Source: Chitinophaga pinensis (GTDB lineage: Bacteria > Verrucomicrobiota > Verrucomicrobiia > Limisphaerales > JAEYXS01). From it: 64,000 nt of DNA. Where the stretch lies: NCBI GenBank assembly GCA_943367715.1, contig CALRJY020000023.1:23264-87263 (forward strand). Reading direction: 5' to 3'. Positions within the stretch are counted from its first letter, which is position 1; every line of letters begins with the position of its first letter. The position numbers were made by a program, and so were the translations under genes. This document shows, piece after piece, positions 40,732 to 62,451 of the stretch. The notes under the pieces are model-generated. The model was not told where the DNA came from. It saw only the letters and a list, made by a program, of their open reading frames with translations, and searched no databases.

Positions 40732-40749
40732 GGGTGAGGCGGGCGACGC

Positions 40750-42021: not shown

Positions 42022-42022
42022 C

Positions 42023-45026: not shown

Positions 45027-46940
45027 TTACACTGTGATTCCCATTTCTGTGAGGAAGCGTGATGGAGCCTTCGCATATCCGAAGTATCGGCCAGAAAACG
45101 TAAGTGTCAGTGCCTCTTCGGCTCGGGTTATCGCCACAAAGCAATTCCGACGCTCCTCCCTCATCTCAAAACTTTCGTCACCCTTCTTCGTGGCCGCCCA
45201 ACTCGGAAGCTGGTCCTCAACCAAACCGATGAGATAAACACGTTTGAACTCCAAGCCCTTCGAACTGTGGATGGTCAGGCAGCGAACAGCATCTTTAGGA
45301 GGCGGCGTCTCCTTCGAGCGGAGATCAAACTCTTGAAGCAGAGAGTGAAGGCTTACTTCGCTTTTGCCATACTGCTGAATCACCTCCTGCTGCAACAATT
45401 TCCAGACTTCCTTCTCTTCCTGATACTCGTCAAACGCGGTATCAACAGCAGTGGGGTGGTTCTGGAGTGCATCAATCCACGAGAAAGCGGCTTCGATGAA
45501 TGCCCAGTGGTCAACTCGCTCAAGCAGAGTGCTCTTAGTCTGTTCAAGAAATGCTCGCGTAATATCTGAAATGGTTTCCTGCCCAAGTGCAGCTTCAAGC
45601 CAGCCCCGCAAGTAGTCCCCACTTTGGAATGAAGACGATGCCACCACATCCTCCACCCTGATATTGTTTCCCTCGAGTGAGTAAAAAGCCTTGCAAACCT
45701 TTCGGAGTTGCTCCCGGTCCTGCCGTGCGTTCGCAAGTCGAAGTGCGGCGTGCAGCCAAGAAACTGGCGCACTGATGAACTGACTTTTCCGCACGGCGAT
45801 GTATGCAGGGACGCTTTGCTGCGTGCACTCGGCAATCACAGCGTCCAAAAGTTTCTTACTCCGCCCAAGAACCACACAGTCGTTCCGGCCTTCTGGCGGC
45901 GTCTGCTTCAACTCGGAAACGACCCACGAGACTTCTTGACCGAAATCATCAAAATGAAAAACCCTCAAATGCGAGTCGGTCGTTGAGATTTTATGCGCTT
46001 TGAGGGGCTCCTTACCCACAGAACGGTCAAGGTTATGTCTTATCAAATTGTTGGCCAATTCGATAACTGCGGGCGGGCAGCGGTAGTTCTCTGGTAATTG
46101 AACTGTCGCCATCGAGAAGCGTTTCAGTAGATCCTGAAGGCGTTGGGGGTTTGCACCGTTCCATTGGTAAATCAGCTGATCGTCATCAGCCACGACGAAC
46201 AAATTCGGCCTGTCCGCTGGAACAAGCGAGCAGAGGAGTCGGAATTGTGTTTCGTTGGTATCCTGAAACTCGTCGACACACACGTATCGATAGACACGCT
46301 GGAACTGTTTCGCAATTGCTGGTCGCTCTTCCAGAAGTTGAACGGCCATACCGATGAGCGAAGCAAAATCCAAGTGGTTTCCTTTGATAAGCTCAGCACG
46401 GTAAGAATTGAACAGTTGTGACAGAAATTCTTTCCGCTGATGCCCACCCAACCTCTCGGCCAGTTCTTGCGGGTTGGAACATTCTGCAAGCATCTTGTCA
46501 ATTACCGGCAATGCGTTTGCTGCTCCTGATATTGTATCTGCGACATCCTCACTGAGCATTTTCATCGCTTCGGTGGCGACTGCTTCACGGTCCGCCTGCT
46601 CGACCAAGATCGTAAAGTCTGGCCTCAGTCCAATGTGATGCCCATGCTGCCGCAGGATCTCGGCAGCGAATGAGTGGAAGGTCGTTAACAGCGCCCTGTC
46701 CTTTCCTGAGTTCAAAAGTGCCTCAAGTCGGGTTCGCATTTCCCCTGCGGCCTTGTTGGTGAACGTTACTCCAAGTACTCGGAAACGCTCGCCGTCGGTA
46801 TCGTCGAGAAGCCGTGCGATGCGATAAGTCAGCACGCGGGTCTTTCCCGAACCAGGGCCGGCCAGCACAAGCAATGGTCCCTCGTTCCATCGCACGGCTT
46901 CAAGCTGTTTCTCATTAAGCGTTGTAAGGTCGATACTCAT
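45027..46940 (-). CDS. gajB: UvrD/PcrA-like SF1 helicase, Gabija GajB
   Basis: VLAGPGSGKTRVLTYRIA (Walker A), TFTNKAAGEM and VCVDEFQDTN. The start overlaps the stop of the OLD-family gene by 4 nt. Confidence 0.8.
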   Translation of the reverse strand: MSIDLTTLNEKQLEAVRWNEGPLLVLAGPGSGKTRVLTYRIARLLDDTDGERFRVLGVTFTNKAAGEMRTRLEALLNSGKDRALLTTFHSFAAEILRQHGHHIGLRPDFTILVEQADREAVATEAMKMLSEDVADTISGAANALPVIDKMLAECSNPQELAERLGGHQRKEFLSQLFNSYRAELIKGNHLDFASLIGMAVQLLEERPAIAKQFQRVYRYVCVDEFQDTNETQFRLLCSLVPADRPNLFVVADDDQLIYQWNGANPQRLQDLLKRFSMATVQLPENYRCPPAVIELANNLIRHNLDRSVGKEPLKAHKISTTDSHLRVFHFDDFGQEVSWVVSELKQTPPEGRNDCVVLGRSKKLLDAVIAECTQQSVPAYIAVRKSQFISAPVSWLHAALRLANARQDREQLRKVCKAFYSLEGNNIRVEDVVASSSFQSGDYLRGWLEAALGQETISDITRAFLEQTKSTLLERVDHWAFIEAAFSWIDALQNHPTAVDTAFDEYQEEKEVWKLLQQEVIQQYGKSEVSLHSLLQEFDLRSKETPPPKDAVRCLTIHSSKGLEFKRVYLIGLVEDQLPSWAATKKGDESFEMREERRNCFVAITRAEEALTLTFSGRYFGYAKAPSRFLTEMGITV

Positions 46941-48685
46941 AGTCGCGCGTTATTTACGGCAGTGGAGATCACGGTTTGAATTTCCGGGGGCAAGCCAGGG
47001 GAACCCTGCTGTCCAGCTGCTTCTATGACCGCAACTGCAAGGTGCGGCTTTGAGGTGCGCTTTATTGCTCGCTTTATGGTCTGGGCAATTGGGTCCGGCG
47101 GTGGTGGAGGCGTCTCCCATAGGCAAGGCTGCCCGTTCGCACATTGTTTCGGCGGTGGAGGCGTTTGCTGAGGAGCATTACCGGCAGCAGTAGTGTAAAC
47201 CTGACTGTATCCATGGTGCCAAAAACTGTGCTCAATATCCTTCTGTGGAAGGACTGAGATTCGCCGAGCTTCCAGCACACCACCCAAAAAGGTGCGAGCG
47301 GTCGCCGCATACCCGATTCCTGCTGTGTCGCCGTCTGCAAGAACGTGCCATTCAATGCCAAGGTCTATCGCGAGCTTGATAAGCGTCGGCAGTCCGCACT
47401 GAGCAAACTCAACACAGCACACGCCTTCCAATTCGAAATCCGTGCCAAGTAATCTTGCGGCTTCAGGTAGAATCCAAAACTCACTCTCTCCTTCCACAAG
47501 TAGCCACGATTTGGCGAAGAGGAGATTCCCGCGCTTGGCGCGAACGTGGTATGCAATCTTGCGTTCGTCATCAGCCGTGAGGGTTCCCGTTTTCACTTGG
47601 AACAATTCAACCTTCCCGGCTTTACGAGCGAGGCGGCGAACCGAACTCAGCGGGACAGCGGCGAGTAATTCACCAGAATGTGTCGCGATAATCTTTTGGC
47701 CCTTGATTGAGTTCAACACCCTCCACAAAGAACGCACAGCCGACGGGTGTAGATGCGACTCTGGTTCTTCAATCGCGAGGAGTGGTTCGGAATCCGGGTC
47801 GTATGCTTCGGCCAGCCGCGCATTGAGAAACGCTTGAAAAAGGAATAAGACGGAAAGACTTTGGGTTCCAGCGCCATGCTGGGTGATCGGCAACTTTGCT
47901 CCGCTTTTCGCTGCAAGCTTCACTTGCGTCTTACTGAGCATGTCGAAAATGCGTGCGGGAATGGCCTCAACACTTACGAGGTCAGCCGCAGCCAAAGGAA
48001 CCAGACCACCAGCCTTCGCCACTTGCGTTTTCACCTCGTTAAACGGCGTATGTGAGTCGAGGACAGATTGATTGATTGCTTCAATCTGCTCTTCCAGTTG
48101 GACACGGGTTGCGTCATCGATCTGCGGATTCTTCGTAAACGGCCCCCAAAACGGGGAACGACTTTGGAAATGCTGGCCAGCATCCCTGACCGCCGCCAAA
48201 AAAAACGCGGGATTCAGTTGTTGAAGCTCAGCAACGATTCGCGGGTTCTTTGCCGTAGTAAGTTCGGCGTTATTGAGGTCACGAAACGACCATTCCAAGG
48301 TAAAATCCTTGATCATCGGGTCATATGAGGCAACGACGTGAAACCGTACTTCCTGTCTGTTATCAGCTCGAACCTGCACCGCTCTTTCAAGGCCCTGCAC
48401 GATTGCATCCGGCCATTCGCTTTCAACCGATTCGACAAAGGTAAAGTCTATTTCTATGGGTGGTGCAGAACTCGGGTCTGGCTTGGCTGCCGTAAGGTGG
48501 AAGTCATACTCCCCGAAAGGCACGACCTTGCGTGACAAGTTTCGGCTTAAGCAGGTGTGAACAGCTTCCAAGACACTGGTCTTGCCGGTATTGTTTTCGC
48601 CGATCAGAACGGTGCACTGTTCCAAAGGGATTGTAAGCTCGTCGATTCCTCGAAAGTTCTTGATGGAGAGTTTGGTCAGTAACAT
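46937..48685 (-). CDS. gajA: OLD-family ATPase-TOPRIM nuclease, Gabija GajA
   Basis: ABC-ATPase N-terminus LSIKNFRGIDELTIPLEQCTVLIGENNTGKTSVLEAV, signature/Walker B LLAIEEPESHLHP, and C-terminal TOPRIM LLVEGESEFWIL...WHVLADGDTAG. The OLD + UvrD pairing defines the class-2 OLD/Gabija arrangement. Confidence 0.85.
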   Translation of the reverse strand: MLLTKLSIKNFRGIDELTIPLEQCTVLIGENNTGKTSVLEAVHTCLSRNLSRKVVPFGEYDFHLTAAKPDPSSAPPIEIDFTFVESVESEWPDAIVQGLERAVQVRADNRQEVRFHVVASYDPMIKDFTLEWSFRDLNNAELTTAKNPRIVAELQQLNPAFFLAAVRDAGQHFQSRSPFWGPFTKNPQIDDATRVQLEEQIEAINQSVLDSHTPFNEVKTQVAKAGGLVPLAAADLVSVEAIPARIFDMLSKTQVKLAAKSGAKLPITQHGAGTQSLSVLFLFQAFLNARLAEAYDPDSEPLLAIEEPESHLHPSAVRSLWRVLNSIKGQKIIATHSGELLAAVPLSSVRRLARKAGKVELFQVKTGTLTADDERKIAYHVRAKRGNLLFAKSWLLVEGESEFWILPEAARLLGTDFELEGVCCVEFAQCGLPTLIKLAIDLGIEWHVLADGDTAGIGYAATARTFLGGVLEARRISVLPQKDIEHSFWHHGYSQVYTTAAGNAPQQTPPPPKQCANGQPCLWETPPPPPDPIAQTIKRAIKRTSKPHLAVAVIEAAGQQGSPGLPPEIQTVISTAVNNARL

Positions 48686-48739: not shown

Positions 48740-49105
48740 TTAATCAAGGCCAACATACTTTTTGGCGGCGGCTTCGAGCAAGGCATTGATGACTGCCACG
48801 CTGGTTGAAAGGCCCTTTTCCTCAGCTTGGGCCATTACCTTCTTCCACAGCGTATCGTTCTTTGCTTTGGATAAAAACTCCTGCCCCGCCCAAGTCATGC
48901 GGTAGACCACACAGGCCACCGGCTCGTTTCTACTACCAGTCTGGATTAGGCCATCAAGGAAATCGGCATCCAACAGCAGTTGGACATGTTCCAGTATCTC
49001 CACCTGCTCCTTGCCCTCGTATTCAAACCCATCAATAGCTTGGCCCGCCGGCGTCGCTTCCACATCCATTAGGATGTTACGGATGAGATCAAGGTCGCGC
49101 TTCAT
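48740..49105 (-). CDS. DUF2513 (winged-helix-like) protein
   Basis: MKRDLDLIRNILMDVEA... is the typical DUF2513 N-terminus. 121 aa, 54 nt upstream of gajA. Confidence 0.7.
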   Translation of the reverse strand: MKRDLDLIRNILMDVEATPAGQAIDGFEYEGKEQVEILEHVQLLLDADFLDGLIQTGSRNEPVACVVYRMTWAGQEFLSKAKNDTLWKKVMAQAEEKGLSTSVAVINALLEAAAKKYVGLD

Positions 49106-49307: not shown

Positions 49308-49640
49308 GCGGCCGGGTTCTCGGCTCGAAGATGCGGCTATCAGAATAGATCGGCTTCGTCGCCTCATCCGCCACCGTGCGCTGGATGTCGTAGATGGAAA
49401 TGTAATCACCGAAGACCGCCCGCGTGTTCGCGTCCGTCTTCTCGATCGGCGTGCCGGTGAAGCCGATGAACGACGCATTCGGCAAGGCATCGCGCAGGTT
49501 CTGGCGAAGCCGTAGGACATCTCGCCGGTCTTCTCATTCACCTTGCCGCCGAATCCATACTGGCTGCGGTGCGCTTCATACGCGATCACGACAATGTTCT
49601 GCCGCCCGCTCAGCTCGGGCATCGCTCTCAGCGCAATGTT
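49308..49640 (-). pseudogene. Internal fragment of a second hsdR (frameshifted, truncated at both ends)
   Basis: Two overlapping frames read [20 protein letters not shown]... and [47 protein letters not shown], which are HsdR helicase motifs II-III. The reading frame is lost on entering repeat copy 2. Confidence 0.75.
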
Positions 49641-49646
49641 ATGAAT

Positions 49647-52600
49647 TCATAATGCTGTGACAGACCACGCCCGAAGACCTTCATAACTAAATCCAAGGTA
49701 AAAAGAAACGCGCCTGTTCTCATCACGCCCAAGAGCCATGCCAGCGACAGCCGGAGCGAAAAATGCCTTAACACCCCACCTCAGTTCAATTTCTCCTGAT
49801 TGTGGGGCGTGGATTCGACTCACAACCCCTTCGATTCGAAGAAGGGGCTTAGTATCTAGCCAAAATCCCGTCGAGTCATCCCATCCTCCCAGTTGGTCTT
49901 GATGAACAAGCCGGCGTAGTCCTTGCCCGCCTCCGAGCCACTCGAAACTTCGCGTGCGATCGCGTCGGAACCCTGCTTTCGCTTTGCAAATTTCGATGTT
50001 CCGCTGAGCATCATTCGCAGCAATTGCAGAACCGTCGAGCGCCTCAAGCATCTTTAGAACATATAGATAGTAGCTTGCGTCGAGGGAGTCCCCTCGCGTC
50101 CGCCACGTGGCGACCCGATCCGCCGCCAATGCTAGTGTTGGCGGCGGAAAGAGGAATCGAGCTCCTTGCAACCAAAGTCGTATGTTTCGGTCTTCATTCG
50201 GCTCCTGTTGGATATTCTCCTCTAGGAGAGTCAGCGATCGCTGAAGATGCTTCGGTGACAGTTTTTGCCATTGCCGCTCACACCTTGCAAGTTGTAGCCA
50301 GACAATCTGCCGCCGGATGGGTGGCGCATGCACTAGTGACTGGCCATTTGCTCCCTTCCGCTGCAACAACTGGTCCCAAAGTTGCAGAGCCTGATCGTGA
50401 GCACCATAAAGAACATTCAACTCAGCACGGCATTTGTCTTCATGCTCGCTTGGCGGTTCGCCGCGGCGCTGTTCTCGCACGGTTCCAAGTAGGTTTTCGA
50501 TTCTTTCGAAGCCTTCCATTAACCAAGGGTCGGTGTTTTCCTTTGCCAGAACCAATACAGCATCCTGCCCACTTCGGGCATAGTCCAACACACGAAGCAT
50601 AGTCTGCGCCTCTGCGATGTAACCATACTCGTCATCGGGCGCTAAACGTCGTGCTTCGCCAAAGCTCTCGGTCGCACGTTTTGCTGCGGCTACGACTGTG
50701 CTGACGGACTCCTTCTCGCCGATCATCTGGAAAGCGAGGTTTCTAAGCGCCATGCCCTTCATGTGATGGAGCACATGATCATCCTCGCTCAGACTAATTG
50801 CCTGATTGATCGCTTTCTCAGCACTTCCGAAATCCTTTCTCTCTATTGAGTGATAACGACCCAAGTGGGCCCAGAAATGCGGGTTCTCTGGGAAGACCTC
50901 GACCAAATGCTCAAACAGCCTCAATTTCGCATCAGTGGTTGGGAGATCACTGACCAAGCGGGAGAAACGGTTCTCGCCGGCAGCCGCACCACTCAACAAC
51001 TCAGCATCGTTGCGGCGAACGCATACTTGTTCGATGACGCCTTGCAAATCTTCAGGTGGGACAGGCTCATTAGTGCGACAGAAATCCACGAACTGCCGCG
51101 CTAAATCACTAAGTTGCATCTTCCAAAGACGTTTGTCGCTGCTTTCGGTGCTCAATGTCAGCTCAAGAATCTCAGTGCTCACAAGTTGGTGGACTGGCCT
51201 CCAGCAACCGCCGCCTTGTTCTATCAGTAGCCCGCGAGCTTCGTTGCAGAGAACCTTGCCAAAGTCCACTGGCCGAGTCGGCGGCAACTGAAGGTGCTCA
51301 GCAAAATGGGCCGCCGCCAAAGCCTGTTGACCGTAGTCATACGAGAGAGCCAAAAACTGCAGAACCCTGATTTGAGGAGCAGGCAGCTGTGAAAGATGGT
51401 TTTGCACATAAGACGTCAAACCAGTGAATTCGGCAGCAAAAGCCGTAAGTCCAAAGAGGAAAGGAGTCCGTGTAGAAGTCGGGACCGCTGCTAGCAGTGC
51501 GAGTTGATGTTTGCGAGTTGGTGCTTCTCTCTCATAGGAAGCGCGGAACCGTTCGGTCTCCGCAGTGGAGAGCTGTGCTCGCAGAAAGATACTGCGTTTA
51601 CCAGCATTAGGAGGTTGGTAGCGGCGCAAAACTTGGAGCAAAACACAAGGGACATGTTTGCTGGCTAAGAGGTTTGCCAACTGGTCTGCTTCGTTCTCCG
51701 GCACGTCACTGCCTTCTCGGAGAACCAAGACTGCTTGCCCCGTTAGCTGGTAAACAAAAGCAATCCGCTCCACGGTTTCGCGAGCCGAACATCGACGAAG
51801 GACTACGGTTGGATAACGCTGATGCAAAACCCAGAGAATACGGCGCGCAATCGTAGAGCCACCCGCACCAGGTTCGTGATAGAGGTTGATACGAGTTGAT
51901 CCACGTTGTCCAAGGTCTTGCTCAACCATGCGCAGCAGTTCAGCGGTCTTTTCCCGCTCGACATCAGCTTGCAACCCCAGATCAAACCAACTGATTTGAC
52001 CTCCGCGAAGAAAGTCTCGCATTGGATCAATCCCCGCAGGGGCACGTGTCCCAGCACTGATATGGACCAGTTCTAAATCTTCATCAAGGTATGCAAAGTT
52101 CTCTCCTGAAATGTCTTTTGGAACACCGCCAACACCCGGCAACTGAACAACATTCTCAATCCCCATCTGAGCTGCGCGAGCTTGAGCGGCCAGCCCATCA
52201 AGGAAATTGCCAATACTCATCGGGAACAGGGTTGCCAATTCCTGCTGCTCCAGCGTGTTCCATTGGTCTGCCGCCCCCGAAACCGCCACACAAGTGGCAC
52301 GCTCACCGAAATTGGTTACAAGATCTTCAAATAGTTTCCGCACAATCAATACGCGGTTGGGACTTTCGCATAAGGCCAAAATCGAGACTGGGCCATTGCA
52401 CCCACCAGCAAGTTGTTCAATTTTCAGTGCTGTCGGTTTGCCATACTTCGCGACCCAATCCTTAAACTTGAGTTCTGATACCAAGTCAGCGGCAACTTGT
52501 TGCCCATTCGCGAAATACCAAGAGGTTGTCCTGCCGACGTCGCCAAGCATCTTCCCTTCCGGGGTAACGACATGCAACGCCCGCCGCCCGGAAAGGTGTT

Positions 52601-53348
52601 CGCGAAAATGCTTGAGTGCACCAGATATCTGACTAGCTGGGTCTAGATCGATAACCATGCTCCAATCAATAGCTGTCAAGTTCGCTAGATCTGCTTTCTT
52701 GGCAGTTTCATCGAGCGCTAGAATGAGAACGTGGTGGCAGTTGCGGCTAGCCAACTGAGTAAGTTCCACAATCTGAGTCCACGCCTGTTCGGGAGGGAAC
52801 TGTAGAGGTTGGAGCGACTGACCTTGCTGGAACCATTTCCAGATAGCGGACTGCTCGCCTGGGCCGGCCTCTTCGTTGCTCGAATCTCGACGACAATATA
52901 AAGCGTGTTTTCTCAAAAGGGGCTTCACTGTTCCATCCGCTCCGCCCACGTCTTTGCTTGCAAAAAAAGGCCCGATTGATCTGTCGGGAGGAATTACTAT
53001 CACCCCGTATTGCAGGCCGTTAAGTTCTGCCTGGTCATAGTGAAAACGAGGACACGGATGAATTAGCCCGTCAAGTGCTTGGATAAGATATACCCCGTCG
53101 AGGTGCTCTGAAACACCAGGCGCATGTATCTTCCCATCCGGCAAGCGCTGAACCCCGATTACAATGTATCGAGGCTCATCACGCCACAGGTTGGCGAACG
53201 CCAAAATATCCTTCGCAAACTTCGCCCGCTTTCGCTCTTTCGTTTTAGAATCGTCTCCAGGTTCGCCCAAGTCGTAAGGCTGCAATTTGAAATCGAGCAC
53301 ATCAGACTCACAACGCTCAAGCAATTGGGACAGTGTTTCTGGATTCAT
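49647..53348 (-). CDS. 1233-aa AlbA_2/Schlafen-like N-terminal domain - STAND-like NTPase module - C-terminal TPR-like repeats
   Basis: The N-terminus ESDVLDFKLQPYDLG...FAKDILAFANLWRDEPRYIVIGV resembles the AlbA_2 (Schlafen-type) domain. The central RINLYHEPGAGGSTIARRILW is a P-loop-like segment without the Walker A lysine. The C-terminal third has TPR-like helical repeats (FWAHLGRYHSIERKDFGSAEKAINQAISL...). Confidence 0.75.
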   Translation of the reverse strand: MNPETLSQLLERCESDVLDFKLQPYDLGEPGDDSKTKERKRAKFAKDILAFANLWRDEPRYIVIGVQRLPDGKIHAPGVSEHLDGVYLIQALDGLIHPCPRFHYDQAELNGLQYGVIVIPPDRSIGPFFASKDVGGADGTVKPLLRKHALYCRRDSSNEEAGPGEQSAIWKWFQQGQSLQPLQFPPEQAWTQIVELTQLASRNCHHVLILALDETAKKADLANLTAIDWSMVIDLDPASQISGALKHFREHLSGRRALHVVTPEGKMLGDVGRTTSWYFANGQQVAADLVSELKFKDWVAKYGKPTALKIEQLAGGCNGPVSILALCESPNRVLIVRKLFEDLVTNFGERATCVAVSGAADQWNTLEQQELATLFPMSIGNFLDGLAAQARAAQMGIENVVQLPGVGGVPKDISGENFAYLDEDLELVHISAGTRAPAGIDPMRDFLRGGQISWFDLGLQADVEREKTAELLRMVEQDLGQRGSTRINLYHEPGAGGSTIARRILWVLHQRYPTVVLRRCSARETVERIAFVYQLTGQAVLVLREGSDVPENEADQLANLLASKHVPCVLLQVLRRYQPPNAGKRSIFLRAQLSTAETERFRASYEREAPTRKHQLALLAAVPTSTRTPFLFGLTAFAAEFTGLTSYVQNHLSQLPAPQIRVLQFLALSYDYGQQALAAAHFAEHLQLPPTRPVDFGKVLCNEARGLLIEQGGGCWRPVHQLVSTEILELTLSTESSDKRLWKMQLSDLARQFVDFCRTNEPVPPEDLQGVIEQVCVRRNDAELLSGAAAGENRFSRLVSDLPTTDAKLRLFEHLVEVFPENPHFWAHLGRYHSIERKDFGSAEKAINQAISLSEDDHVLHHMKGMALRNLAFQMIGEKESVSTVVAAAKRATESFGEARRLAPDDEYGYIAEAQTMLRVLDYARSGQDAVLVLAKENTDPWLMEGFERIENLLGTVREQRRGEPPSEHEDKCRAELNVLYGAHDQALQLWDQLLQRKGANGQSLVHAPPIRRQIVWLQLARCERQWQKLSPKHLQRSLTLLEENIQQEPNEDRNIRLWLQGARFLFPPPTLALAADRVATWRTRGDSLDASYYLYVLKMLEALDGSAIAANDAQRNIEICKAKAGFRRDRTRSFEWLGGGQGLRRLVHQDQLGGWDDSTGFWLDTKPLLRIEGVVSRIHAPQSGEIELRWGVKAFFAPAVAGMALGRDENRRVSFYLGFSYEGLRAWSVTAL

Positions 53349-53369: not shown

Positions 53370-53654
53370 TTATATACGGGGGCGCGGTCAATGAGCGTGC
53401 CAATTTTCCGGGCGTCGATGAAGAGGGTCTGCTGGCGGCGGTCGCGGAAGCCGCGTTTGGCGGCGGCGGCTTTGTTCGTCTTTGCGGAACCAGTTGGAGT
53501 CTTTGAAGGGCGGGTAAGCAAGGAAGTGGTCGGTGTGCTGATCTGGATTAAGGTTGCGCTGCGTGTGCGCCATCAGCCAGTGCTTGGCTTCAAAGCCAAA
53601 ATTGGCGGGTTCAATGCCTGCTGTTTTACGTCCCATAGCGGTAAAGCTTTCCAA
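53370..53654 (-). pseudogene. Relic hsdM (N-terminal ~50 codons joined, out of frame, to a C-terminal piece)
   Basis: One frame reads GIEPANFGFEAKHWLMAHTQRNLNPDQHTDHFL (HsdM_N-like, degenerate). Another frame reads RDRRQQTLFIDARKIGTLIDR, which is the conserved HsdM C-terminal block (vLFIDArk.gt..dR). Confidence 0.55.
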
Positions 53655-53798: not shown

Positions 53799-56700
53799 TC
53801 AAAGCGGTCGCGGCCTCCCCGCCCTCACAACCCTCAAGCTAAATCCCCTGCCATTCTCATACGGCTCAACCCTCGCCACCACCTCCAGCACCGGATATCG
53901 CACCGTCGCCAACCCATAGCTTCGGTAACTGGCGGCATACAGCTCCGTCTCCACCATCCCGGTCCAATCACACAAAGTCATAAACTTCATCGGTTCCCCG
54001 GTGACTTGATGATGGGTCCGTTGTTCGATGATCAGCCCACAGACAACCACTTCTTGGCCAATGAACTGATGCAATCTCGAAACCGGGCAATAGGTGTCCC
54101 AAGCAATGTCACAATACAGCTCCAAAGGATGACCACTCGCCGCAAACCCTAATAAGTCGGTTTCCCATTGCAACTTCTCCAATCGACCCGGCTCCCGCAA
54201 TGTCGTCATGGGAAGCTTGTCCAAGGAAGGTGGAGGTAACAGCCAACCCTGCCCTGGCTCTGCATTCGGGCCAAAGGTCTGATGAAGATACTGCACCTCC
54301 CAAAATTGCTGTGTCCGGGATTGTCCAAAGCAGTCAAACCCACCTACCCGCATCAAGGATTCCAGTTCTTCCATCGAAGGATGCACCCGTAGGTAGAAGT
54401 CTTTCAGGCAAGCGAAGGATTTCCGGTTAGCTTCTTCCAGCAACAGTTCCTTTACCCTTTCGGTCAGACCTTTCACTGCCGTAACAGGAACTCGGATCTG
54501 CCCCTGCTCCACCACAAAGTTAGGTCCAGGATTGTTGATCGTTGGAGGAAGCAAACAGATACCCAAGCGATGGCACTCCAAAACATAGACCAGCGGAGCA
54601 TAAAACCCCTTCCCGTTCGTCAACACACCCGCCATGAATTCCGCCGGATGATACCGTTTCAACCACGCCGCCTGATACGCTTCCACTCCATAGGCCGTCG
54701 AGTGAGCTTTGCAGAAGGCATACCCGTTGAAGCCGGTCACCAACTCCCATACTTCCACGATTTTCTCCTGCCTATGTCCTCTCGATATGGCTCCCGCAGC
54801 AAACTCTTCAGCCATCTCTTCAACCACCTTATGTTTCTGCTTCACCAACGCTCTCCTCAACACATCAGCCCGCCCAGGTGACATTCCGGCAAAGGCTTCA
54901 CAGATCTGGAGAATGTGCTCTTCGTAAATGACCAAGCCGTAGGTGCTCCTCAGGCATGGTTCCAAGGAGGAGTCAGGGTAATAAGGTGGCTCCATTCCCT
55001 GATAACGACGGGTGAACTCCTGCTTTTTGTTCTCGTTCGCTGCACCCGGCCGAATAACGCTCACAATCGCTATCAGACCGTCGATTTCCCGCACATTGGT
55101 CATACGGCAGAGAGATACCATGGCCGGTGATTCAATGTGGTGAACAGCCCGCGCTCCCCCACTGGCAATCACCTCCCACACCTCGGGATCTTCCCAAGGT
55201 TCCAATGCAGCCAGATCCACAACGATTCCTTTGGCCAGGAGAGCTTGAACGGCATCTCGCATCACTGCCAATCCGCCTTGAGCCAACACATCAGTTTTGA
55301 CCAAGCCCACCACTTCCACTGATTCCATGTCCAGCTGCGTAGTCGGCCAGCCTTTATTCGAGATGAAGGTTGGAGTCAGTTGTTGCATGGGTTGCCGGGA
55401 TACAACAACCCCACATGGATGCATTTTAGGATGGCGAGGAAACCCATCCAGAAAGGCAGCAGTCTCTACGGCGGTCTTGAATGGTTCCTGATCCAGTGGC
55501 AGATCCCGGCACTCAGGACTTTGCCTCAGCATTTCCAACAAAGCTGCACCCCTGACATTGTGATGATCCTCAGATACCCACCCTCCGCCAAAGCTCCAGG
55601 GAAAGTGTTCGGTGAAGCGTCTGATTTGATGATCCGATACCCCTAAGACCTTCGCCACATCCGCTACTGCTGACTTAGCTTTGAAAGTAGAGAACCCTCC
55701 TACGACTGCACTATGCTGTGGGCCGTATTTCTCCAGCAACATTTCTACCACGTCATCTTTGCGGTCATGAGGAAAATCCACGTCGATATCAGGCAACTTG
55801 TTCAGCGCCATCCGGTCTTTGTTGAGGAAGCGCCGGAAGTAGAGGCCAAATCGGATCGGGCAGACGTCAGAGATCCCTAGGCTGTAACAAACCAATGAAT
55901 CTGCTGCACTGCCTCGGGTGATCCATTCGATGCCCCGTTTACGACAGTCCTGAAGCAAATCCCAGGTGATCAAGAACAAGTCCTCGTAACCGACGTCCGT
56001 GATGATGGCCAGCTCGGTCTCCAGTTGGGCTCGCACCTGCGTTGTAGACACTGCTGTGCCTGCATCCGAGCGAATGACTTTGCCGTGATATCGTCGGTTC
56101 ATCCCTTCCACCGCCAGCCGGTGGAGGAAAGCGCGCGAGCTAAGTCCATCCGGTGCCCGATACGCCGGGAACTGGGGTTTGCCAAAGGGGAAGTCGAACT
56201 GACAACGCTCGGCCAATTCCATGGTAAGTGGTATCCCTTTGGTTGAGCATTCCTGTGCTGATCGAAAGTGATAGTGGCCACCTGTGCGTTTCTGAGGATG
56301 CTGCTGGTTGAGGAGTGTCAGGGTTCGGATGCTTTGAACGATATCGTAGCATCGCCGGTCTTCTGGCCTCGCGTAATGAACCGAGGGACAGAAGATTGCA
56401 CCCGGCTTCCCTGCCTCATAGAATCGATCTCCAAACACATCCCTTAGCGTCGTATCGGAACTGACAGCCAAAAGACCTCGATGATGAACTGATAGCAGGC
56501 TGAGGGGTATGGGTGCCTGTTGTTTGGCAGCCACACTCTCATCGTCAGCTCGCACAGCCTGTTTTGAGAGCAATCGGCACAGGTTCTCGTAGCCCTCAGC
56601 ATTCTGCACATAGAGAAGCAGTGGATGGTTGCCGAATCTCAACTCCACACCGATAACTGGTTTGATCCCTGTCTTTTGAGCTGCCTGAACGAACTCAACC

Positions 56701-58076
56701 ACCCCATGAAGGTTGCCGGTATCAGTCATGGCCACCGCAGGGCATTGATTCTTTACCGCCAAATCAACGATCTGCTGTGGTGAGATGATGCTGTCCAGAA
56801 AGGAGTAGTAGCTATGCATCCTTAGAGGCACATACGTTGATGCCTTCTGGACGATATGCTTTCTGGTGGGAACGATGCTTGTAGGCTTGGAAGCATCGAC
56901 TGGAGGTTTACGCAGTCGAAAGTCATGGCCTCGAACGATAACCAGTCTGCCTTTCGTCTCCCGTAGCTCATCGATAGCACGAGCCAGCTTTGAGCGAGCA
57001 TCACTTTGTTCTGCCCTTCGATCCAAGGCCAGTTCTGTTCGCTGATGCCCGGTGTAGAGATTGGAGAGCTTGAGGGACACGAGCCTGATACTGATGCGAC
57101 GTTTCCAAGCTGCCTTGAGCATCATCGTTAACCTGTTGTAGACATCGGTTTCCAGTTCCGTGGGTTCCAACAGGCTTTCACTCACCTGATCCTCGGCCAT
57201 GTCGTTGTATCTCACTTTCACGGTCAGGGTGCGGATACTTCGACTCTCAGCCCTTACTTTGGCGAACAAGTCATCAGCCATCCTTCGGAGAACAGCCGCC
57301 AGATACTCCTCATCGGTGACATCCTGGCCAAAGGTTTCCTGCTGGCCGAAGGTCTTTTGTGGTTCACTAACTGGAATGAGTGGCCGTTCATCAATCCCAT
57401 GAGCGTGCTGTCGAACGATTACAGCCTGCTTGCCTAGCACCAACTCAAGCAGATCCACGGGCGTCTCTGCTATCTGGCGGATGTAAGCGAGTCCAGCGGA
57501 GTTCAAACGGATGGCGGTTTTAGGACCAATGCCCGGTAGCCATTTGTTTTCCAATGGGGCCAGGAACGCCGCCTCTTCACCTAGGGGTATATGGTGTAGT
57601 GCAGCCGGCTTGTTGAGTTTGCTGGCTATCTGGCTGATCAACTTATTGCTCGCCACTCCTTCACTCACCGAGATCTTCAGCTTCTGCCTGATGGCCTTCC
57701 TGACGATCTGGGCCACCTCCTCAGCGGGTTTGGGACTGGCAGTGAGCTCGTAGTAGCCTTCATCGATGGAGGTTTGCTCAACGTCAGGGGTGAAGTCGTA
57801 CGGATAACTGAACATCCACCGGGAGAACTCTTCATACCGCTCATAGTTTCCGGGCAAGACGATGAGTTTGGGACACAGCTTTCTGGCTTGAGCAGTAGGC
57901 ATTGGTGTGCGGACTCCAAACCTGCGTGCTTCATAGCTGGCACTAGCGACAATACCCCGCTTTTCACCACCCACGGCAATCGGCTTACCACGCAGATGAA
58001 CGTCCGCTGCCTGCTCTACGGAGGCAAAGAAGGCGTCGGCGTCCAGATGAACGATGATACGGGGTCTTTCTGACAT
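53799..58076 (-). CDS. Fusion of a Y-family DNA polymerase (DinB/Pol IV-like, catalytic residues intact) with error-prone Pol III alpha (DnaE2-like)
   Basis: aa 1-~400: IIVHLDADAFFASVEQ, GIVASASYEARRFGVRTPMP, TSIDEGY, SEGVASNKLISQIASKLNKP, WLPGIGPKT. From about aa 415: the PHP domain YVPLRMHSYYSFLDSIISPQQIVDLAV..AVAMTDTGNLHGVVEFV, then Pol III alpha core motifs (PDIDVDF, FCKAHSTAY). It is one uninterrupted 1425-codon ORF. Confidence 0.9.
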   Translation of the reverse strand: MSERPRIIVHLDADAFFASVEQAADVHLRGKPIAVGGEKRGIVASASYEARRFGVRTPMPTAQARKLCPKLIVLPGNYERYEEFSRWMFSYPYDFTPDVEQTSIDEGYYELTASPKPAEEVAQIVRKAIRQKLKISVSEGVASNKLISQIASKLNKPAALHHIPLGEEAAFLAPLENKWLPGIGPKTAIRLNSAGLAYIRQIAETPVDLLELVLGKQAVIVRQHAHGIDERPLIPVSEPQKTFGQQETFGQDVTDEEYLAAVLRRMADDLFAKVRAESRSIRTLTVKVRYNDMAEDQVSESLLEPTELETDVYNRLTMMLKAAWKRRISIRLVSLKLSNLYTGHQRTELALDRRAEQSDARSKLARAIDELRETKGRLVIVRGHDFRLRKPPVDASKPTSIVPTRKHIVQKASTYVPLRMHSYYSFLDSIISPQQIVDLAVKNQCPAVAMTDTGNLHGVVEFVQAAQKTGIKPVIGVELRFGNHPLLLYVQNAEGYENLCRLLSKQAVRADDESVAAKQQAPIPLSLLSVHHRGLLAVSSDTTLRDVFGDRFYEAGKPGAIFCPSVHYARPEDRRCYDIVQSIRTLTLLNQQHPQKRTGGHYHFRSAQECSTKGIPLTMELAERCQFDFPFGKPQFPAYRAPDGLSSRAFLHRLAVEGMNRRYHGKVIRSDAGTAVSTTQVRAQLETELAIITDVGYEDLFLITWDLLQDCRKRGIEWITRGSAADSLVCYSLGISDVCPIRFGLYFRRFLNKDRMALNKLPDIDVDFPHDRKDDVVEMLLEKYGPQHSAVVGGFSTFKAKSAVADVAKVLGVSDHQIRRFTEHFPWSFGGGWVSEDHHNVRGAALLEMLRQSPECRDLPLDQEPFKTAVETAAFLDGFPRHPKMHPCGVVVSRQPMQQLTPTFISNKGWPTTQLDMESVEVVGLVKTDVLAQGGLAVMRDAVQALLAKGIVVDLAALEPWEDPEVWEVIASGGARAVHHIESPAMVSLCRMTNVREIDGLIAIVSVIRPGAANENKKQEFTRRYQGMEPPYYPDSSLEPCLRSTYGLVIYEEHILQICEAFAGMSPGRADVLRRALVKQKHKVVEEMAEEFAAGAISRGHRQEKIVEVWELVTGFNGYAFCKAHSTAYGVEAYQAAWLKRYHPAEFMAGVLTNGKGFYAPLVYVLECHRLGICLLPPTINNPGPNFVVEQGQIRVPVTAVKGLTERVKELLLEEANRKSFACLKDFYLRVHPSMEELESLMRVGGFDCFGQSRTQQFWEVQYLHQTFGPNAEPGQGWLLPPPSLDKLPMTTLREPGRLEKLQWETDLLGFAASGHPLELYCDIAWDTYCPVSRLHQFIGQEVVVCGLIIEQRTHHQVTGEPMKFMTLCDWTGMVETELYAASYRSYGLATVRYPVLEVVARVEPYENGRGFSLRVVRAGRPRPL

Positions 58077-58126: not shown

Positions 58127-58768
58127 TTAATCTTTGGATTTTCTGATTAGTGCCCGGAATACTCCCTGGATCATCAGTTCTTCGGCAGGAACCAGATCAG
58201 GGTATTTGGGATTCTCGGCCTTGAGGTAGGGCTTACGGTTGCGCAGCAGGAAGGTCTTCAAGGTTGATTTCCCATCAATCAAAGCGGCAACTACCTGACC
58301 ATTACGGGGTTCAGGGCCGTGCTTCATCACCACAATGTCCCCATCGATGATGAACTTACCGATCATGGAATCACCTGTGACCCGGAGGGCAAAGGTGTTC
58401 CGGTTGGGCTTGAAGCCGATAGATTCCACATCCACAGAGACACAGCCCTCGGCATCTTGGACCCGATCTTCTGATAAACCAGCCGGGATTGAACCGTAGA
58501 TGGGGATATCGACAATCCGTTGCCTAAACCTTTGCAGTGGAGAGATTACCTGCAATGAACGTGCCCTGCCATTCGACTCACCTAGGTAACCCTTCTGTCG
58601 GATAAGCCGGAGATGGTCGGTCACTGTGCTACTGGTAGTGAACCCGAAATGCCGTGCTATCTCTCGGACAGATGGTGTCGAGCCTCGGTTCTCCTGCTCG
58701 CGCAGGACGAAATCGACAATCTGCTGCTGACGTTTGGTTAAGGATTCAGACATACCGCACAAATGCAC
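58127..58768 (-). CDS. lexA: LexA repressor (S24 peptidase)
   Basis: N-terminal winged HTH LTKRQQQIVDFVLREQENRGSTPSVREIARHFGF, then FALRVTGDSMIGKFIIDGDIVVM (catalytic Ser) and VAALIDGKSTLKTF (catalytic Lys). The likely start is the ATG at 58753 (MSESLTK). Confidence 0.9.
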   Translation of the reverse strand: MHLCGMSESLTKRQQQIVDFVLREQENRGSTPSVREIARHFGFTTSSTVTDHLRLIRQKGYLGESNGRARSLQVISPLQRFRQRIVDIPIYGSIPAGLSEDRVQDAEGCVSVDVESIGFKPNRNTFALRVTGDSMIGKFIIDGDIVVMKHGPEPRNGQVVAALIDGKSTLKTFLLRNRKPYLKAENPKYPDLVPAEELMIQGVFRALIRKSKD

Positions 58769-60339: not shown

Positions 60340-60359
60340 ACCGGGGTATTTGTTTGGTT

Positions 60360-60554: not shown

Positions 60555-60664
60555 GTTGTTTGCCTTTCTTTTTCAGACTTCATGCCTGATGAGGAAGCAT
60601 TTATCACGATCCGCCCCACTCTGTTTAGGAGTCCAATTAGAAATTTCGCAAGAATTCGGCCACA

Positions 60665-62447: not shown

Positions 62448-62451
62448 ATCG

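What the first reader, a model, noticed from the sequence alone, without database searches (positions are those of the whole stretch)
49647..53348. 1233-aa Schlafen/AlbA_2-like - STAND-like - TPR protein wedged between relics of a Type I R-M system
The domain order (N-terminal putative effector/DNA-binding AlbA_2 domain, central NTPase-like module, C-terminal TPR-like sensor repeats) matches the logic of antiviral STAND (Avs-like) proteins. Two features stand out. First, the P-loop-like segment HEPGAGGSTIARR lacks the canonical Walker A lysine (GxxxxGK[ST]), and I found no other GK[ST] motif in the protein. Second, about 250 aa between the AlbA_2 domain and the NTPase module are unassigned. 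The gene lies between an hsdM relic (53370-53654) and an hsdR relic (49308-49640). That placement is typical of defence genes that have invaded or replaced R-M cassettes.
Basis: partly seen in the sequence, partly recalled or inferred. Interest (0 to 1): 0.7.

Follow-up and report, generated by a model that had tools for sequence, protein, structure and literature searches.

The report
Bacterial SAMD9-like immune sensor (Avs9)
This intact 1233-aa gene is a bacterial relative of the human antiviral protein SAMD9, belonging to a family already described and named Avs9. Its two "odd" features (no Walker A lysine, 250 unassigned residues) are known hallmarks of that family, so it is an ordinary new member whose trigger and anti-phage activity remain unknown.

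Summary
The ORF (49647-53348, minus strand, 1233 aa) is real, full length and under strong purifying selection (dN/dS 0.08-0.09).

It is a stand-alone SAMD9-family STAND protein. The domain order is Schlafen/AlbA_2 nuclease, lid-less SIR2-like domain, NOD, TPR, then C-terminal OB fold. That is human SAMD9 minus its SAM domain, the architecture Legrand et al. (2025) named Avs9.

- The lysine-less P-loop (H491-x-P-G-x-G-G-[ST]-T) never has a Lys in 143 relatives. In SAMD9 cryo-EM the upstream His replaces the Lys and ATP is bound.
- The "unassigned" 250 aa are the SAMD9-type SIR2-like domain.

The hsdR relic downstream is solid. The hsdM relic upstream is tiny, but a 92% homologue validates it: its shared flank still carries an HsdM_N domain.

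Most likely mechanism (inferred): an ATP-bound, autoinhibited sensor opens on infection and releases a tRNA-cutting E14-D19-K21 nuclease, causing abortive infection. No Avs9 has a demonstrated trigger or phage defence.

The target lacks the fourth active-site carboxylate (Q67). That position varies across the family.

Verdict: new member of a known kind, with modest interest.

The parts
49647..53348 (-). Complete gene for the 1233-aa SAMD9-like STAND protein (Avs9 architecture); stop codon at 49647-49649
   Evidence: ORF. Full-length homologues at 37-94% identity. dN/dS 0.094 and 0.080 against two DNA homologues.
52821..53348 (-). AlbA_2 / Schlafen-type nuclease domain, aa 1-176. Predicted catalytic E14, D19, K21 plus D47. 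Q67 sits where SAMD9 D241 / Avs9 E65 lie.
   Evidence: Pfam SLFN_AlbA_2 sub-threshold. PADLOC PDC-S50 N-terminus, E 1.3e-7. AF2 pLDDT ~85-90. Family profile hits CbCash 9ylu at E 3.2e-7 and the SLFN11 and Schlafen 8 (5yd0) nuclease domains, aligning E14/D19/K21 to CbCash E17/D22/K24 (PMC13462974). E14, D19, K21, K46, D47, N53 and R56 are invariant in 25 diverse N-domains.
52149..52784 (-). Conserved W229-x2-V-x-D234-x-D236-P motif shared with SAMD9.
   Evidence: AF2 alternating beta/alpha, pLDDT >90. Foldseek top hits are the SAMD9 cryo-EM chains (E 1.8e-9), then ThsA SIR2 and FAM118B. The profile of this region hits only SAMD9 in PDB (E 4.4e-11). Conservation.
51939..52148 (-). Linker between SIR2-like and NOD, aa 401-470. 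It includes the counterpart of the SAMD9 lineage insert: F-L-R448-G449-G (51999-52013), matching SAMD9 F-Y-R685-G686-G.
   Evidence: phmmer alignment to SAMD9. G449 is invariant. R685 and G686 are regulatory residues in SAMD9 (PMC13600222; PDB titles).
50979..51938 (-). NOD module (NBD-HD1-WHD-HD2), aa 471-790. Lys-less Walker A H491-E-P-G-A-G-G-S-T499 (51852-51878); Walker B VLVLRE545 (51714-51731); sensor-1 R575 (51624-51626); WHD R717-x-x-H720 (51189-51200).
   Evidence: phmmer to SAMD9, E 1.4e-11. Foldseek E 5.4e-26 to SAMD9 9zjr, with the next hit STAND-TPR 6mfv at 1e-11. Conservation in 143 relatives and alignment to the SAMD9L equivalents. Coordinates.
49974..50978 (-). TPR-like alpha-helical repeat region, aa 791-1125 (putative sensor/regulatory arm)
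   Evidence: AF2 is all-helical with pLDDT ~85-95. Foldseek alignment to SAMD9 spans it, and many TPR proteins follow. It has the lowest dN/dS in the gene, 0.05.
49650..49973 (-). C-terminal OB-like beta-barrel, aa 1126-1233, with the conserved ending GFSYEGLRAW
   Evidence: AF2 beta strands at aa ~1136-1232, pLDDT >90. A collinear weak phmmer segment matches the SAMD9 C-terminus. The motif was used successfully to find 102 relatives.
53384..53458 (-). hsdM relic fragment (KRGFRDRRQQTLFIDARKIGTLIDR), immediately upstream of the gene. A further weak remnant lies at ~53556-53645.
   Evidence: PADLOC MTase_I PDLC03019 positions 376-403/932, E 0.015. The DNA is shared with L003, whose upstream ORF has HsdM_N at E 2e-20. 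tblastn remnant at E 0.007.
49330..49622 (-). hsdR relic: about 100 codons of the helicase motor (DEAH-box region, now YEAH), split over two frames
   Evidence: Pfam SWI2_SNF2 E 5.2e-18. PADLOC REase_I PDLC03040 positions 389-431 and 437-488/1029. tblastn to the window's intact HsdR, E 3e-5. The DEAH block is shared with L003.

Best explanation
The gene encodes a stand-alone, single-protein antiviral STAND of the SAMD9 family (Avs9 architecture).

Shown here:
- Five collinear modules match human SAMD9 minus SAM: Schlafen/AlbA_2 nuclease, lid-less SIR2-like domain, NOD, TPR, OB.
- The NOD keeps every residue that binds ATP-Mg in SAMD9. These are H491 in place of the Walker A lysine, S498/T499, Walker B E545, sensor-1 R575, and WHD R717/H720.
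- The nuclease keeps the E14-D19-K21 triad, which is the catalytic centre of the solved prokaryotic Schlafen tRNase CbCash. It also keeps D47, the residue whose mutation (D45N) abolishes toxicity of P. fluorescens Avs9.
- All domains are under purifying selection.
- The gene has no conserved partner gene.

Inferred by analogy with SAMD9, CbCash and other Avs proteins:
- At rest the protein is an ATP-bound, closed, autoinhibited monomer or dimer. The SIR2-like, linker and TPR-OB modules clamp the NOD and keep the nuclease inactive.
- During phage infection an unknown ligand engages the TPR/OB arm. It could be a phage protein, as for other Avs, or a nucleic acid, as reported for SAMD9.
- The clamp opens, and SIR2-SIR2 and OB-SIR2 contacts drive oligomerisation.
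- The nuclease then cleaves host tRNA loops, stopping translation and aborting the infection.

The gene was inserted into, or replaced the interior of, a Type I R-M operon that has since decayed. It now sits in a dense defence island.
For: Identity:
- phmmer against PDB hits only SAMD9 (E 1.4e-11).
- The family profile against mammalian SAMD9L gives probability 99.2%, E 7.7e-20, over 847 collinear columns.
- The SIR2-like profile hits only SAMD9 (E 4.4e-11).
- The AF2 models are confident (pLDDT 83.5 and 88.7). Their best PDB matches are the SAMD9 cryo-EM structures (E 1.8e-9 and 5.4e-26).

P-loop:
- H-x-P-G-x-G-G-[ST]-T is invariant. The lysine position is G in 137 and A in 6 of 143 relatives, never K. 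Walker B acid, sensor-1 Arg and WHD His are ~100% conserved and align to SAMD9 H737, D799, R837, H985.
- The structural role of these residues and ATP binding come from PMC13600222. The family hallmark was described in PMC5445408.

Nuclease:
- The A8 profile hits CbCash with the triad aligned.
- CbCash is a tRNase with an E-D-K triad (PMC13462974).
- Avs9 toxicity depends on D45 (PMC12680541).

Functional gene: dN/dS 0.05-0.17 in every domain.

Solo gene, accessory contexts.

Defence island in the window: CBASS, Type I R-M, Gabija, UG39 RT and an IetA-like protein.
Against: - No Avs9 has been shown to protect against any phage, and no trigger is known. Only overexpression toxicity has been shown, in a 42%-identical-class relative.
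- The substrate (tRNA) is extrapolated from SAMD9 and CbCash.
- The target has Q67 where SAMD9 D241 (essential for tRNA cleavage) and Avs9 E65 lie. This position is K, S, E or D across the family, so the active site is not identical to SAMD9's.
- The Pfam hits for both named domains are below gathering thresholds for this sequence.
- Several homologues sit among housekeeping genes.
- Autoinhibition and oligomerisation are untested in any bacterial member.
- I could not compare directly with the tested protein A0A7T4VS34.
Confidence: 0.72

Rival explanations
1. The SIR2-like domain is the real effector and acts as an NADase, as in Avs5, ThsA and DSR. The AlbA_2 domain would serve only as a nucleic-acid-binding or sensor module.
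For: Foldseek gives weak similarity of aa 189-400 to ThsA SIR2 domains (E ~3e-3 to 9e-3). The domain is strongly conserved (dN/dS 0.08-0.14). Avs5, a SAMD9-like Avs, kills via SIR2 NAD+ hydrolysis (PMC12931631).
Against: - The region's profile matches only the SAMD9 SIR2-like domain. That domain lacks the NAD-binding lid and acts as a regulatory and dimerisation module (PMC13600222).
- Avs9 toxicity is abolished by a single AlbA_2 mutation, and the AlbA_2 domain alone is toxic.
- The E-D-K triad is invariant.
- Residue-level comparison with SIR2 catalytic Asn/His was not done.
Confidence: 0.06
2. It is not a phage-defence gene. Instead it is a stress or signalling STAND, or an addiction/selfish toxin, that regulates translation or dormancy, or stabilises the mobile island that carries it.
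For: No phage defence has been shown for any Avs9. Some homologues are single insertions among housekeeping genes. Mekhedov et al. originally suggested signal transduction for the bacterial members.
Against: - In this window it lies among at least five recognised defence systems.
- Neighbours in other genomes include integrases, transposases, TA pairs, TIR, Shedu-like, GmrSD and BrxC genes.
- The published defence score for the Avs9 clade is significant.
- Architecture and effector match known abortive-infection logic.
Confidence: 0.1
3. It is or was a PrrC/RloC-like guard of a Type I R-M system. On this reading the tRNase STAND, embedded between hsdM and hsdR, is held silent by the R-M complex and fires when a phage anti-restriction factor disables it.
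For: The gene lies exactly between an hsdM fragment and an hsdR fragment, in operon orientation. A diverged copy (L003) shares this arrangement. tRNA-cutting effectors embedded in hsd operons (prrC, rloC) are known from the literature; this rests on my own knowledge and was not checked here.
Against: - The flanking hsd genes are dead relics in both copies, yet the gene stays under strong purifying selection.
- The 94% homologue L001 and all other contexts examined lack hsd neighbours.
- No N6_Mtase or HsdR family recurs in the 16-genome survey.
- The protein has its own complete sensor arm.
Confidence: 0.04
4. It is a decaying or catalytically dead passenger gene, because it lacks the Walker A lysine and the fourth nuclease carboxylate and sits between pseudogene fragments.
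For: There is no GK[ST] motif. Q67 replaces an essential SAMD9 residue. The flanks are relics.
Against: - The ORF is full length and the same size as its relatives.
- dN/dS is 0.08-0.09 overall and at most 0.17 in every domain.
- The Lys-less P-loop is the functional, ATP-binding state of this family.
- The E-D-K triad that suffices in CbCash is intact.
Confidence: 0.03

Closest known systems
Avs9 (bacterial SAMD9/9L analogues; Legrand et al., Nat Ecol Evol 2025, PMC12680541; reference protein P. fluorescens A0A7T4VS34)
   Same: - Same five-domain order without SAM: AlbA_2, SIR2-like, P-loop NOD, TPR, OB.
- Similar length (~1230 aa).
- 42% identity over the full length to a 1227-aa Pseudomonas protein (P0022) whose acidic residues fall at the published positions E14, D19, D45, E65.
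- Encoded next to defence systems.
   Different: - Q67 replaces the fourth published active-site residue (E65).
- I could not verify identity to the tested protein itself.
- Here the gene is embedded in the remains of a Type I R-M operon.
- Neither toxicity nor defence has been tested for this member.
Human SAMD9 / SAMD9L (poxvirus and lentivirus restriction factors; tRNA-Phe anticodon nuclease)
   Same: - Sequence-level homology of the SIR2-like, linker (FxRGG), NOD, TPR and OB modules.
- Identical non-canonical Walker A (H-x-P-G-x-G-G-[ST]-T).
- Conserved Walker B acid, sensor-1 Arg and WHD Arg/His.
- SAMD9 structures are the best fold matches for both halves.
   Different: - No SAM domain, and ~350 aa shorter.
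- Only one Walker B acid (RE, not DD).
- The AlbA_2 domain is not specifically SAMD9-like. The A8 profile hits CbCash and SLFN11 but no SAMD9 chain at E <= 10, which agrees with the published view that the nuclease was fused independently.
- D241 equivalent is absent.
- The substrate specificity (2'-O-methylated eukaryotic tRNA-Phe) is unlikely to carry over.
Prokaryotic Schlafen nucleases (CbCash, Nat Commun 2026, PMC13462974; pSlfn, Nat Microbiol 2026, PMC13056530)
   Same: These are the closest solved relatives of the N-terminal domain (E 3.2e-7), with the E-D-K catalytic triad aligned. They cleave tRNA as an abortive-infection effector.
   Different: Those proteins are small and are activated by cA4 via Csx15, or by Ig-like and other sensor domains. 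Here the nuclease is fused to a SAMD9-type STAND chassis.
Avs5 (AVAST type 5) and Avs1-4
   Same: Tripartite effector-NTPase-repeat sensor logic. The Avs5 sensor is reported to cluster structurally with SAMD9.
   Different: - No PADLOC AVAST model matched the target at E <= 0.01.
- Avs5 has a canonical GPAGSGKT Walker A and uses an active SIR2 NADase as effector.
- It has no AlbA_2 domain.

Membership tests
SAMD9 family (Mekhedov, Makarova & Koonin 2017) | Core architecture AlbA_2 - variant SIR2-like - STAND P-loop NTPase - TPR - OB fold | tested here: met
   AF2 models plus Foldseek to the SAMD9 structures. hhalign to SAMD9L over 847 collinear columns. Domain-specific profiles.
SAMD9 family (Mekhedov, Makarova & Koonin 2017) | Walker A with GG[T/S] instead of GK[T/S], plus a conserved upstream His | tested here: met
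   H491-EPGAGG-S498-T499, with no GK[ST] in the protein. In 143 relatives the His is present in 137 and the Lys position is never K.
SAMD9 family (Mekhedov, Makarova & Koonin 2017) | Significant sequence similarity to animal SAMD9/9L | tested here: met
   phmmer E 1.4e-11 to human SAMD9. Mole SAMD9L was recovered in the homologue search. Profile comparison probability 99.2%, E 7.7e-20.
Pfam PF25199 nSTAND_NTPase5 | Score at or above the curated gathering threshold (34 bits) | tested here: not met
   30.2 bits, E 4.6e-7, model positions 1-122/145. Many close homologues do carry the precomputed PF25199 annotation, so this is a borderline score and not evidence against homology.
Avs9 (Legrand et al. 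2025) | Bacterial Avs with the SAMD9/9L domain composition except the SAM domain | tested here: met
   Same evidence as above. The protein starts directly with the AlbA_2 domain.
Avs9 (Legrand et al. 2025) | AlbA_2 predicted catalytic residues E14, D19, D45, E65 | tested here: inconclusive
   E14, D19 and D47 (= D45) are present and invariant in the family. Q67 replaces E65, a position that is K/S/E/D in relatives. Only D45 was tested experimentally in the paper.
Avs9 (Legrand et al. 2025) | AlbA_2-dependent cell killing | not testable with these tools
   This needs expression of wild type and D47N in a bacterial host.
Avs9 (Legrand et al. 2025) | Direct homology to the reference protein A0A7T4VS34 and placement in the Avs9 AlbA_2 clade | not tested
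   The reference sequence was not obtainable. It was not in the clusters of P0022 or P0031, and no supplement is held. The only proxy is 42% full-length identity to Pseudomonas P0022.
STAND NTPases (general) | NBD-HD1-WHD(-HD2) module with Walker B acid, sensor-1 Arg and WHD His | tested here: met
   E545, R575 and H720 are conserved in 143, 143 and 142 of 143 relatives and aligned to SAMD9L. After SAMD9, the next Foldseek hit is the STAND-TPR protein 6mfv at E 1.1e-11.
STAND NTPases (general) | Canonical Walker A GxxxxGK[ST] | tested here: not met
   Gly497 occupies the Lys position. This is the known SAMD9-lineage deviation, in which His substitutes for the Lys.
AVAST Avs1-5 (PADLOC v2 models) | Match to an AVAST HMM | tested here: not met
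   The only PADLOC hit at E <= 0.01 is PDC-S50, over the N-terminal 159 aa.
Schlafen-type tRNA endonucleases | E-D/E-K catalytic triad (CbCash E17/D22/K24; the ExK motif of SLFNs) | tested here: met
   E14, D19 and K21 aligned by profile to CbCash, SLFN11 and Schlafen 8 (5yd0). They are invariant in 25 diverse family N-domains.
Schlafen-type tRNA endonucleases | Third/fourth carboxylate in the 'GVDD' strand (SAMD9 D241) | tested here: not met
   The target has G65-V-Q67-R68.
Schlafen-type tRNA endonucleases | tRNA cleavage activity | not testable with these tools
   This needs small-RNA sequencing or in vitro assays.
SIR2 NADase effectors (ThsA/DSR/Avs5 type) | Catalytically competent NAD+-binding SIR2 domain | tested here: inconclusive
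   There is fold-level similarity to ThsA only (E ~3e-3). The sequence profile matches only the lid-less SAMD9 SIR2-like domain. Catalytic residues were not compared residue by residue.
R-M-embedded anticodon nucleases (PrrC/RloC type) | Encoded within a functional Type I hsd operon and dependent on it | tested here: not met
   The flanking hsdM and hsdR are short relics here and in L003. Other homologues have no hsd neighbours.

The most novel reading that the evidence does not exclude
This bacterial SAMD9-type STAND may sense an infection-associated nucleic acid through its conserved OB fold and TPR arm, and not a phage protein. That would parallel the reported dsDNA/dsRNA binding of human SAMD9. 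It would be the first nucleic-acid-sensing bacterial Avs, and a tractable bacterial model for how the ATP-bound, Lys-less SAMD9 NOD is switched on.

Nothing here excludes it. The OB and TPR modules are the most strongly constrained parts of the gene (dN/dS 0.05-0.10), and no protein trigger is known for any Avs9.
Probability: 0.12. Interest if true: 0.65.

Novelty: new member of a known kind. Interest (0 to 1): 0.3.

Why it matters
Avs9 proteins are the bacterial counterparts of SAMD9/SAMD9L, human restriction factors whose gain-of-function mutations cause MIRAGE syndrome, bone-marrow failure and related disorders.

A compact, SAM-less bacterial version keeps the same ATP-binding residues, linker motif and SIR2/TPR/OB clamps. 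It could serve as an experimentally easy system for working out what ligand opens this unusual ATP-bound STAND and how the Schlafen nuclease is released.

For this particular locus the added value is contextual:
- It supplies an Avs9 in a dense defence island (CBASS, Type I R-M, Gabija, UG39 RT).
- It shows the gene moving as a bare single-gene unit between unrelated contexts.
- It shows that the fourth 'catalytic' carboxylate proposed for Avs9 is not conserved in the family.

None of this changes what kind of system it is.

Tried and rejected
- PADLOC AVAST/Avs models: no hit, so the protein is not Avs1-5.
- NCBIfam: no family for the target.
- Pfam, plasmid tblastn and comparison with the window's own HsdM failed to identify the upstream hsdM relic. 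It was resolved only through L003 and one weak PADLOC hit.
- Promoter/terminator consensus scan around the gene: nothing above shuffled expectation, and no minus-strand promoter was found upstream.
- Direct and inverted repeats at the gene's borders: only short chance-level matches, with no target-site duplication or terminal inverted repeats. The mechanism that moves the gene is unknown.
- tRNA genes as an integration site: none in the window.
- Attempts to obtain the tested Avs9 (A0A7T4VS34) for direct comparison failed. Cluster look-ups of P0022 and P0031 did not contain it, and the paper's supplements are not held.
- A conserved partner gene: rejected after nine annotated contexts and a 16-genome, 128-ORF survey.
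- The idea that the Lys-less P-loop marks a dead NTPase: rejected from conservation and the SAMD9 ATP-bound structures.
- Numbering slip: the queries lacked Met1, so A1 numbering is the true position minus 1. This is corrected everywhere in the report.

Full report
**Observation**

The window has an uninterrupted ORF at 49647-53348 on the minus strand: ATG start, 1233 aa. The segment HEPGAGGSTIARR starts at residue 491. There is no GK[ST] or GxxxxGK motif anywhere in the protein. For this sequence Pfam gives only two sub-threshold hits. These are nSTAND_NTPase5 (aa 444-564, 30.2 bits against a cut-off of 34) and SLFN_AlbA_2 (aa 35-159, 21.8 against 25.3). NCBIfam gives nothing. PADLOC gives only PDC-S50 over the N-terminal 159 aa, and no AVAST model.

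**Identity**

A sequence search of all PDB chains returns only human SAMD9. The match is E 1.4e-11, centred on FLRGGQISWF...INLYHEPGAGGSTIA against FYRGGKVSWW...IHLYHHPGCGGTTLA. Weaker collinear pieces fall in the region before it, in the TPR region and at the C-terminus.

The homologue search finds full-length relatives of 37-94% identity, and at the margin a mammalian SAMD9L. A profile of 24 relatives aligns to that SAMD9L with 99.2% probability (E 7.7e-20) over 847 collinear columns, from the AlbA_2 domain into the TPR region.

The protein exceeds the 1200-aa limit, so it was modelled in two overlapping parts. Both models are confident: mean pLDDT 83.5 for aa 1-470 and 88.7 for aa 431-1233. 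For both parts the best PDB matches are the 2026 SAMD9 cryo-EM structures.
- The N-terminal part scores E 1.8e-9 to SAMD9. It is followed by an AlbA_2-like domain (2kyy) and ThsA-type SIR2 domains.
- The C-terminal part scores E 5.4e-26 over about 920 columns. It is followed by a STAND-TPR protein, 6mfv, at 1e-11.

The architecture is therefore:

| Module | Residues |
|---|---|
| AlbA_2/Schlafen nuclease | 1-176 |
| SIR2-like Rossmann domain | 189-400 |
| Linker with the FLRGG motif | 401-470 |
| NOD | 471-790 |
| TPR | 791-1125 |
| OB-like barrel | 1126-1233 |

This is SAMD9 without its SAM domain.

**What is already known**

Mekhedov, Makarova and Koonin (2017) described exactly this core architecture. 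They noted its presence in bacteria, and the 'highly unusual' GG[T/S] Walker A with a conserved upstream histidine (PMC5445408).

Legrand et al. (2025) named the bacterial proteins with the SAMD9 domain set minus SAM 'Avs9'. They showed that a P. fluorescens member kills E. coli when expressed, and that D45N in the AlbA_2 domain abolishes this. They also found the clade associated with defence systems. They did not show phage defence or a trigger (PMC12680541). A full-text search finds no later functional work on Avs9; the 2026 STAND survey only reserves the name.

The SAMD9 cryo-EM paper shows that Gly replaces the Walker A lysine and that His737 occupies the lysine's position. ATP-Mg is bound through T744, D799/D800 and sensor-1 R837. 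H985 of the winged helix holds the closed, autoinhibited state. The SIR2-like domain lacks the NAD lid and serves as a clamp and dimerisation surface (PMC13600222).

**Testing those features here**

In an alignment of 143 bacterial relatives of at least 1000 aa plus SAMD9L:

| Target residue | Conservation (of 143) | SAMD9 equivalent |
|---|---|---|
| H491 | His in 137, Tyr in 6 | H737 |
| G497 (Lys position) | Gly 137, Ala 6, never Lys | G743 |
| S/T498 | 143 | T744 |
| T499 | 139 | T745 |
| Walker B E545 | acidic in 143 | D799 |
| Sensor-1 R575 | 143 | R837 |
| WHD R717 | 131 | R982 |
| WHD H720 | 142 | H985 |

The motif F-L-R448-G449-G matches SAMD9 F-Y-R685-G686-G, part of the element the cryo-EM authors call the SAMD9 lineage insert. 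The SIR2-like motif W229..V.D234.D236.P is shared with SAMD9L. So the 'degenerate' P-loop is the conserved, functional state of this lineage. Avs5, by contrast, has a canonical GPAGSGKT.

**The nuclease domain**

A profile of 25 diverse N-domains finds CbCash as the closest solved relative (9ylu, E 3.2e-7). The SLFN11 and Schlafen 8 (5yd0) nuclease domains follow. No SAMD9 chain appears at E <= 10. This agrees with the published view that the Avs9 and SAMD9 nuclease domains are only distantly related.

CbCash is a cA4-activated tRNA endonuclease. Cryo-EM and mutagenesis show its catalytic centre to be E17-D22-K24 plus Mg (PMC13462974). These residues align to target E14-D19-K21. Together with K46, D47, N53 and R56 they are invariant in the family sample. 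D47 corresponds to the experimentally validated D45 of Avs9.

One difference stands out. The carboxylate of the Schlafen 'GVDD' strand is SAMD9 D241, which is essential for tRNA cleavage, and Avs9 E65. In the target it is Q67. In relatives it is K, S, E or D, and even the closest relatives differ (E, Q or K). This residue is therefore not a family-wide requirement.

**Is the gene alive?**

Nei-Gojobori dN/dS is 0.094 against the 94% homologue (L001) and 0.080 against the 92% homologue (L003). It lies between 0.05 (TPR) and 0.17 in every domain. The gene is functional, not a relic.

**Context**

On the minus strand the window carries, in order:
- LexA, then a DinB-DnaE fusion
- the hsdM fragment, the target, and the hsdR fragment
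- DUF2513
- Gabija GajA/GajB
- an intact Type I R-M (hsdM, hsdS, hsdR)
- CBASS (cyclase + 4TM)

Further left lie a UG39-class defence reverse transcriptase, a retron-XIII-like WGR/HEAT protein and an IetA-like ATPase. This is a dense defence island.

The hsdR relic is unambiguous. The hsdM relic is detectable directly only as a 25-residue 'LFIDARK' fragment (PADLOC MTase_I, E 0.015). However, locus L003 shares both flanks with the window: a continuous 88.6% alignment from 53458 to 49646, plus the DEAH block of the hsdR relic. The L003 upstream ORF carries a genuine HsdM_N domain (E 2e-20) that decays into the same fragment in another frame.

The hsdM'-gene-'hsdR arrangement is therefore ancestral to these two copies. 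It is consistent with replacement of the interior of an hsdM-hsdS-hsdR operon. In the 94% homologue L001, DNA similarity starts 12 nt before the ATG and ends within the stop codon region, and the neighbours are unrelated (aconitase). No repeats mark the borders.

**Other genomes**

The family is large. A search with aa 1-1200 finds 2271 representative clusters at E <= 1e-3 and 569 at E <= 1e-30. It is also taxonomically broad, spanning Planctomycetota, Chloroflexota, Proteobacteria, Acidobacteriota, Cyanobacteria and Chlorobi. Actinomycete and Bacteroidota versions carry other N-termini.

In nine annotated contexts the gene is always alone. It is flanked variously by an integrase island with a Shedu-like gene, by transposases, by a TIR protein, by toxin-antitoxin pairs, or by plain housekeeping genes. 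In a survey of 128 neighbouring ORFs from 16 diverse genomes, no family recurs in more than three loci. Those that do recur are integrases, DDE transposases, C5-methylases, GmrSD and HNH, with one BrxC. The protein is therefore a single-gene system that is mobile and often, but not always, in accessory or defence regions.

**Mechanism**

Shown: the architecture, the conserved ATP-binding and nuclease residues, purifying selection, solo status and the defence-island context.

Taken from the literature: ATP-bound autoinhibition and SIR2/OB-mediated activation in SAMD9; tRNA cleavage by SAMD9 and CbCash; D45-dependent killing by Avs9.

Inferred: that this protein rests ATP-bound and closed, is opened by an infection cue acting on the TPR/OB arm, oligomerises, and cleaves host tRNA to abort infection.

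Rivals are listed separately with lower confidence. They are a SIR2 NADase effector, a non-defence role, a PrrC-like R-M guard, and a dead gene.

**Verdict**

However, the protein falls squarely in a family described in 2017 and named in 2025, and its two flagged peculiarities are that family's signature. It is a new member of a known kind.

The residual interest lies in three things:
- the lack of any known trigger or demonstrated defence for Avs9
- the non-conserved fourth carboxylate
- the R-M-embedded history of this copy

Noticed in passing
window 53799-58076 (-), with LexA at 58127-58768 (-): A single 1425-aa ORF fuses a complete Y-family DinB/Pol IV-like polymerase (IMS + IMS_C, aa 1-390) to a DnaE-type Pol III alpha (PHP, pol3 alpha, finger, HHH). 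It lies directly downstream of a LexA-like repressor. On plasmids the homologues are two adjacent genes (dinB + dnaE), and one also has a DUF72 neighbour as here. The fusion looks unusual and resembles a LexA-controlled mutagenesis cassette.
   Followed up: partly
window 20885-48685: A dense defence island sits upstream of the target on the same replicon. It holds a UG39-class defence reverse transcriptase (20885-22759, E 7e-129), a retron-XIII-like WGR/HEAT-ARM protein (26836-27924), an IetA-like AAA ATPase (33890-35440), CBASS cyclase + 4TM effector (35545-37343), an intact Type I R-M (37570-44623) and Gabija GajB/GajA (45027-48685).
   Followed up: partly
window 32736-33449 (+): A 237-aa ORF carries only a short N6_Mtase fragment (model positions 20-88 of 311). 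It is a second decayed methyltransferase gene in the island, besides the hsdM relic next to the target.
   Followed up: no
window 58816-63495 (-): A run of uncharacterised accessory genes lies beyond LexA: a 507-aa protein with a PADLOC 'Ankyrin' hit (E 2e-15) and no Pfam hit at E <= 0.01, DUF72 (60665-61588), a staphylococcal-nuclease homologue (61779-62447) and an HNH endonuclease (62452-63495).
   Followed up: no
window 48740-49105 (-): A DUF2513 protein (E 4.6e-21) sits between the hsdR relic and Gabija. It has no PADLOC match and its function is unknown.
   Followed up: no
L001 10001-13702; L003 2516-6217; L005: Near-identical copies of the gene (92-94% protein identity) occur on contigs assigned to very different taxa and contexts: a 'Candidatus Kuenenia' MAG with the same hsd relics, and a JGI metagenome contig next to aconitase. 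A 74% copy is in a Methylococcaceae MAG. In L001 the similarity stops at the gene borders. This indicates recent horizontal transfer of the bare gene, or mis-binning of the MAG contig.
   Followed up: partly
P0028, P0029, loci L057-L070 and many representatives: Many relatives keep the SIR2-like/NOD/TPR/OB chassis but replace the AlbA_2 nuclease with other N-terminal modules. They are about 1440-1780 aa long and match the target only from aa ~170-225 onwards. These include actinomycete versions, consistent with the kinase-fused bacterial SAMD9 homologues described in 2017. The effector position is evidently swappable.
   Followed up: no
window 49974-50978 (TPR region of the target): The presumed sensor arm has the lowest dN/dS of the gene (0.05 against both close homologues). 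It shows no sign of the diversifying selection one might expect from an arms race with a phage ligand.
   Followed up: no
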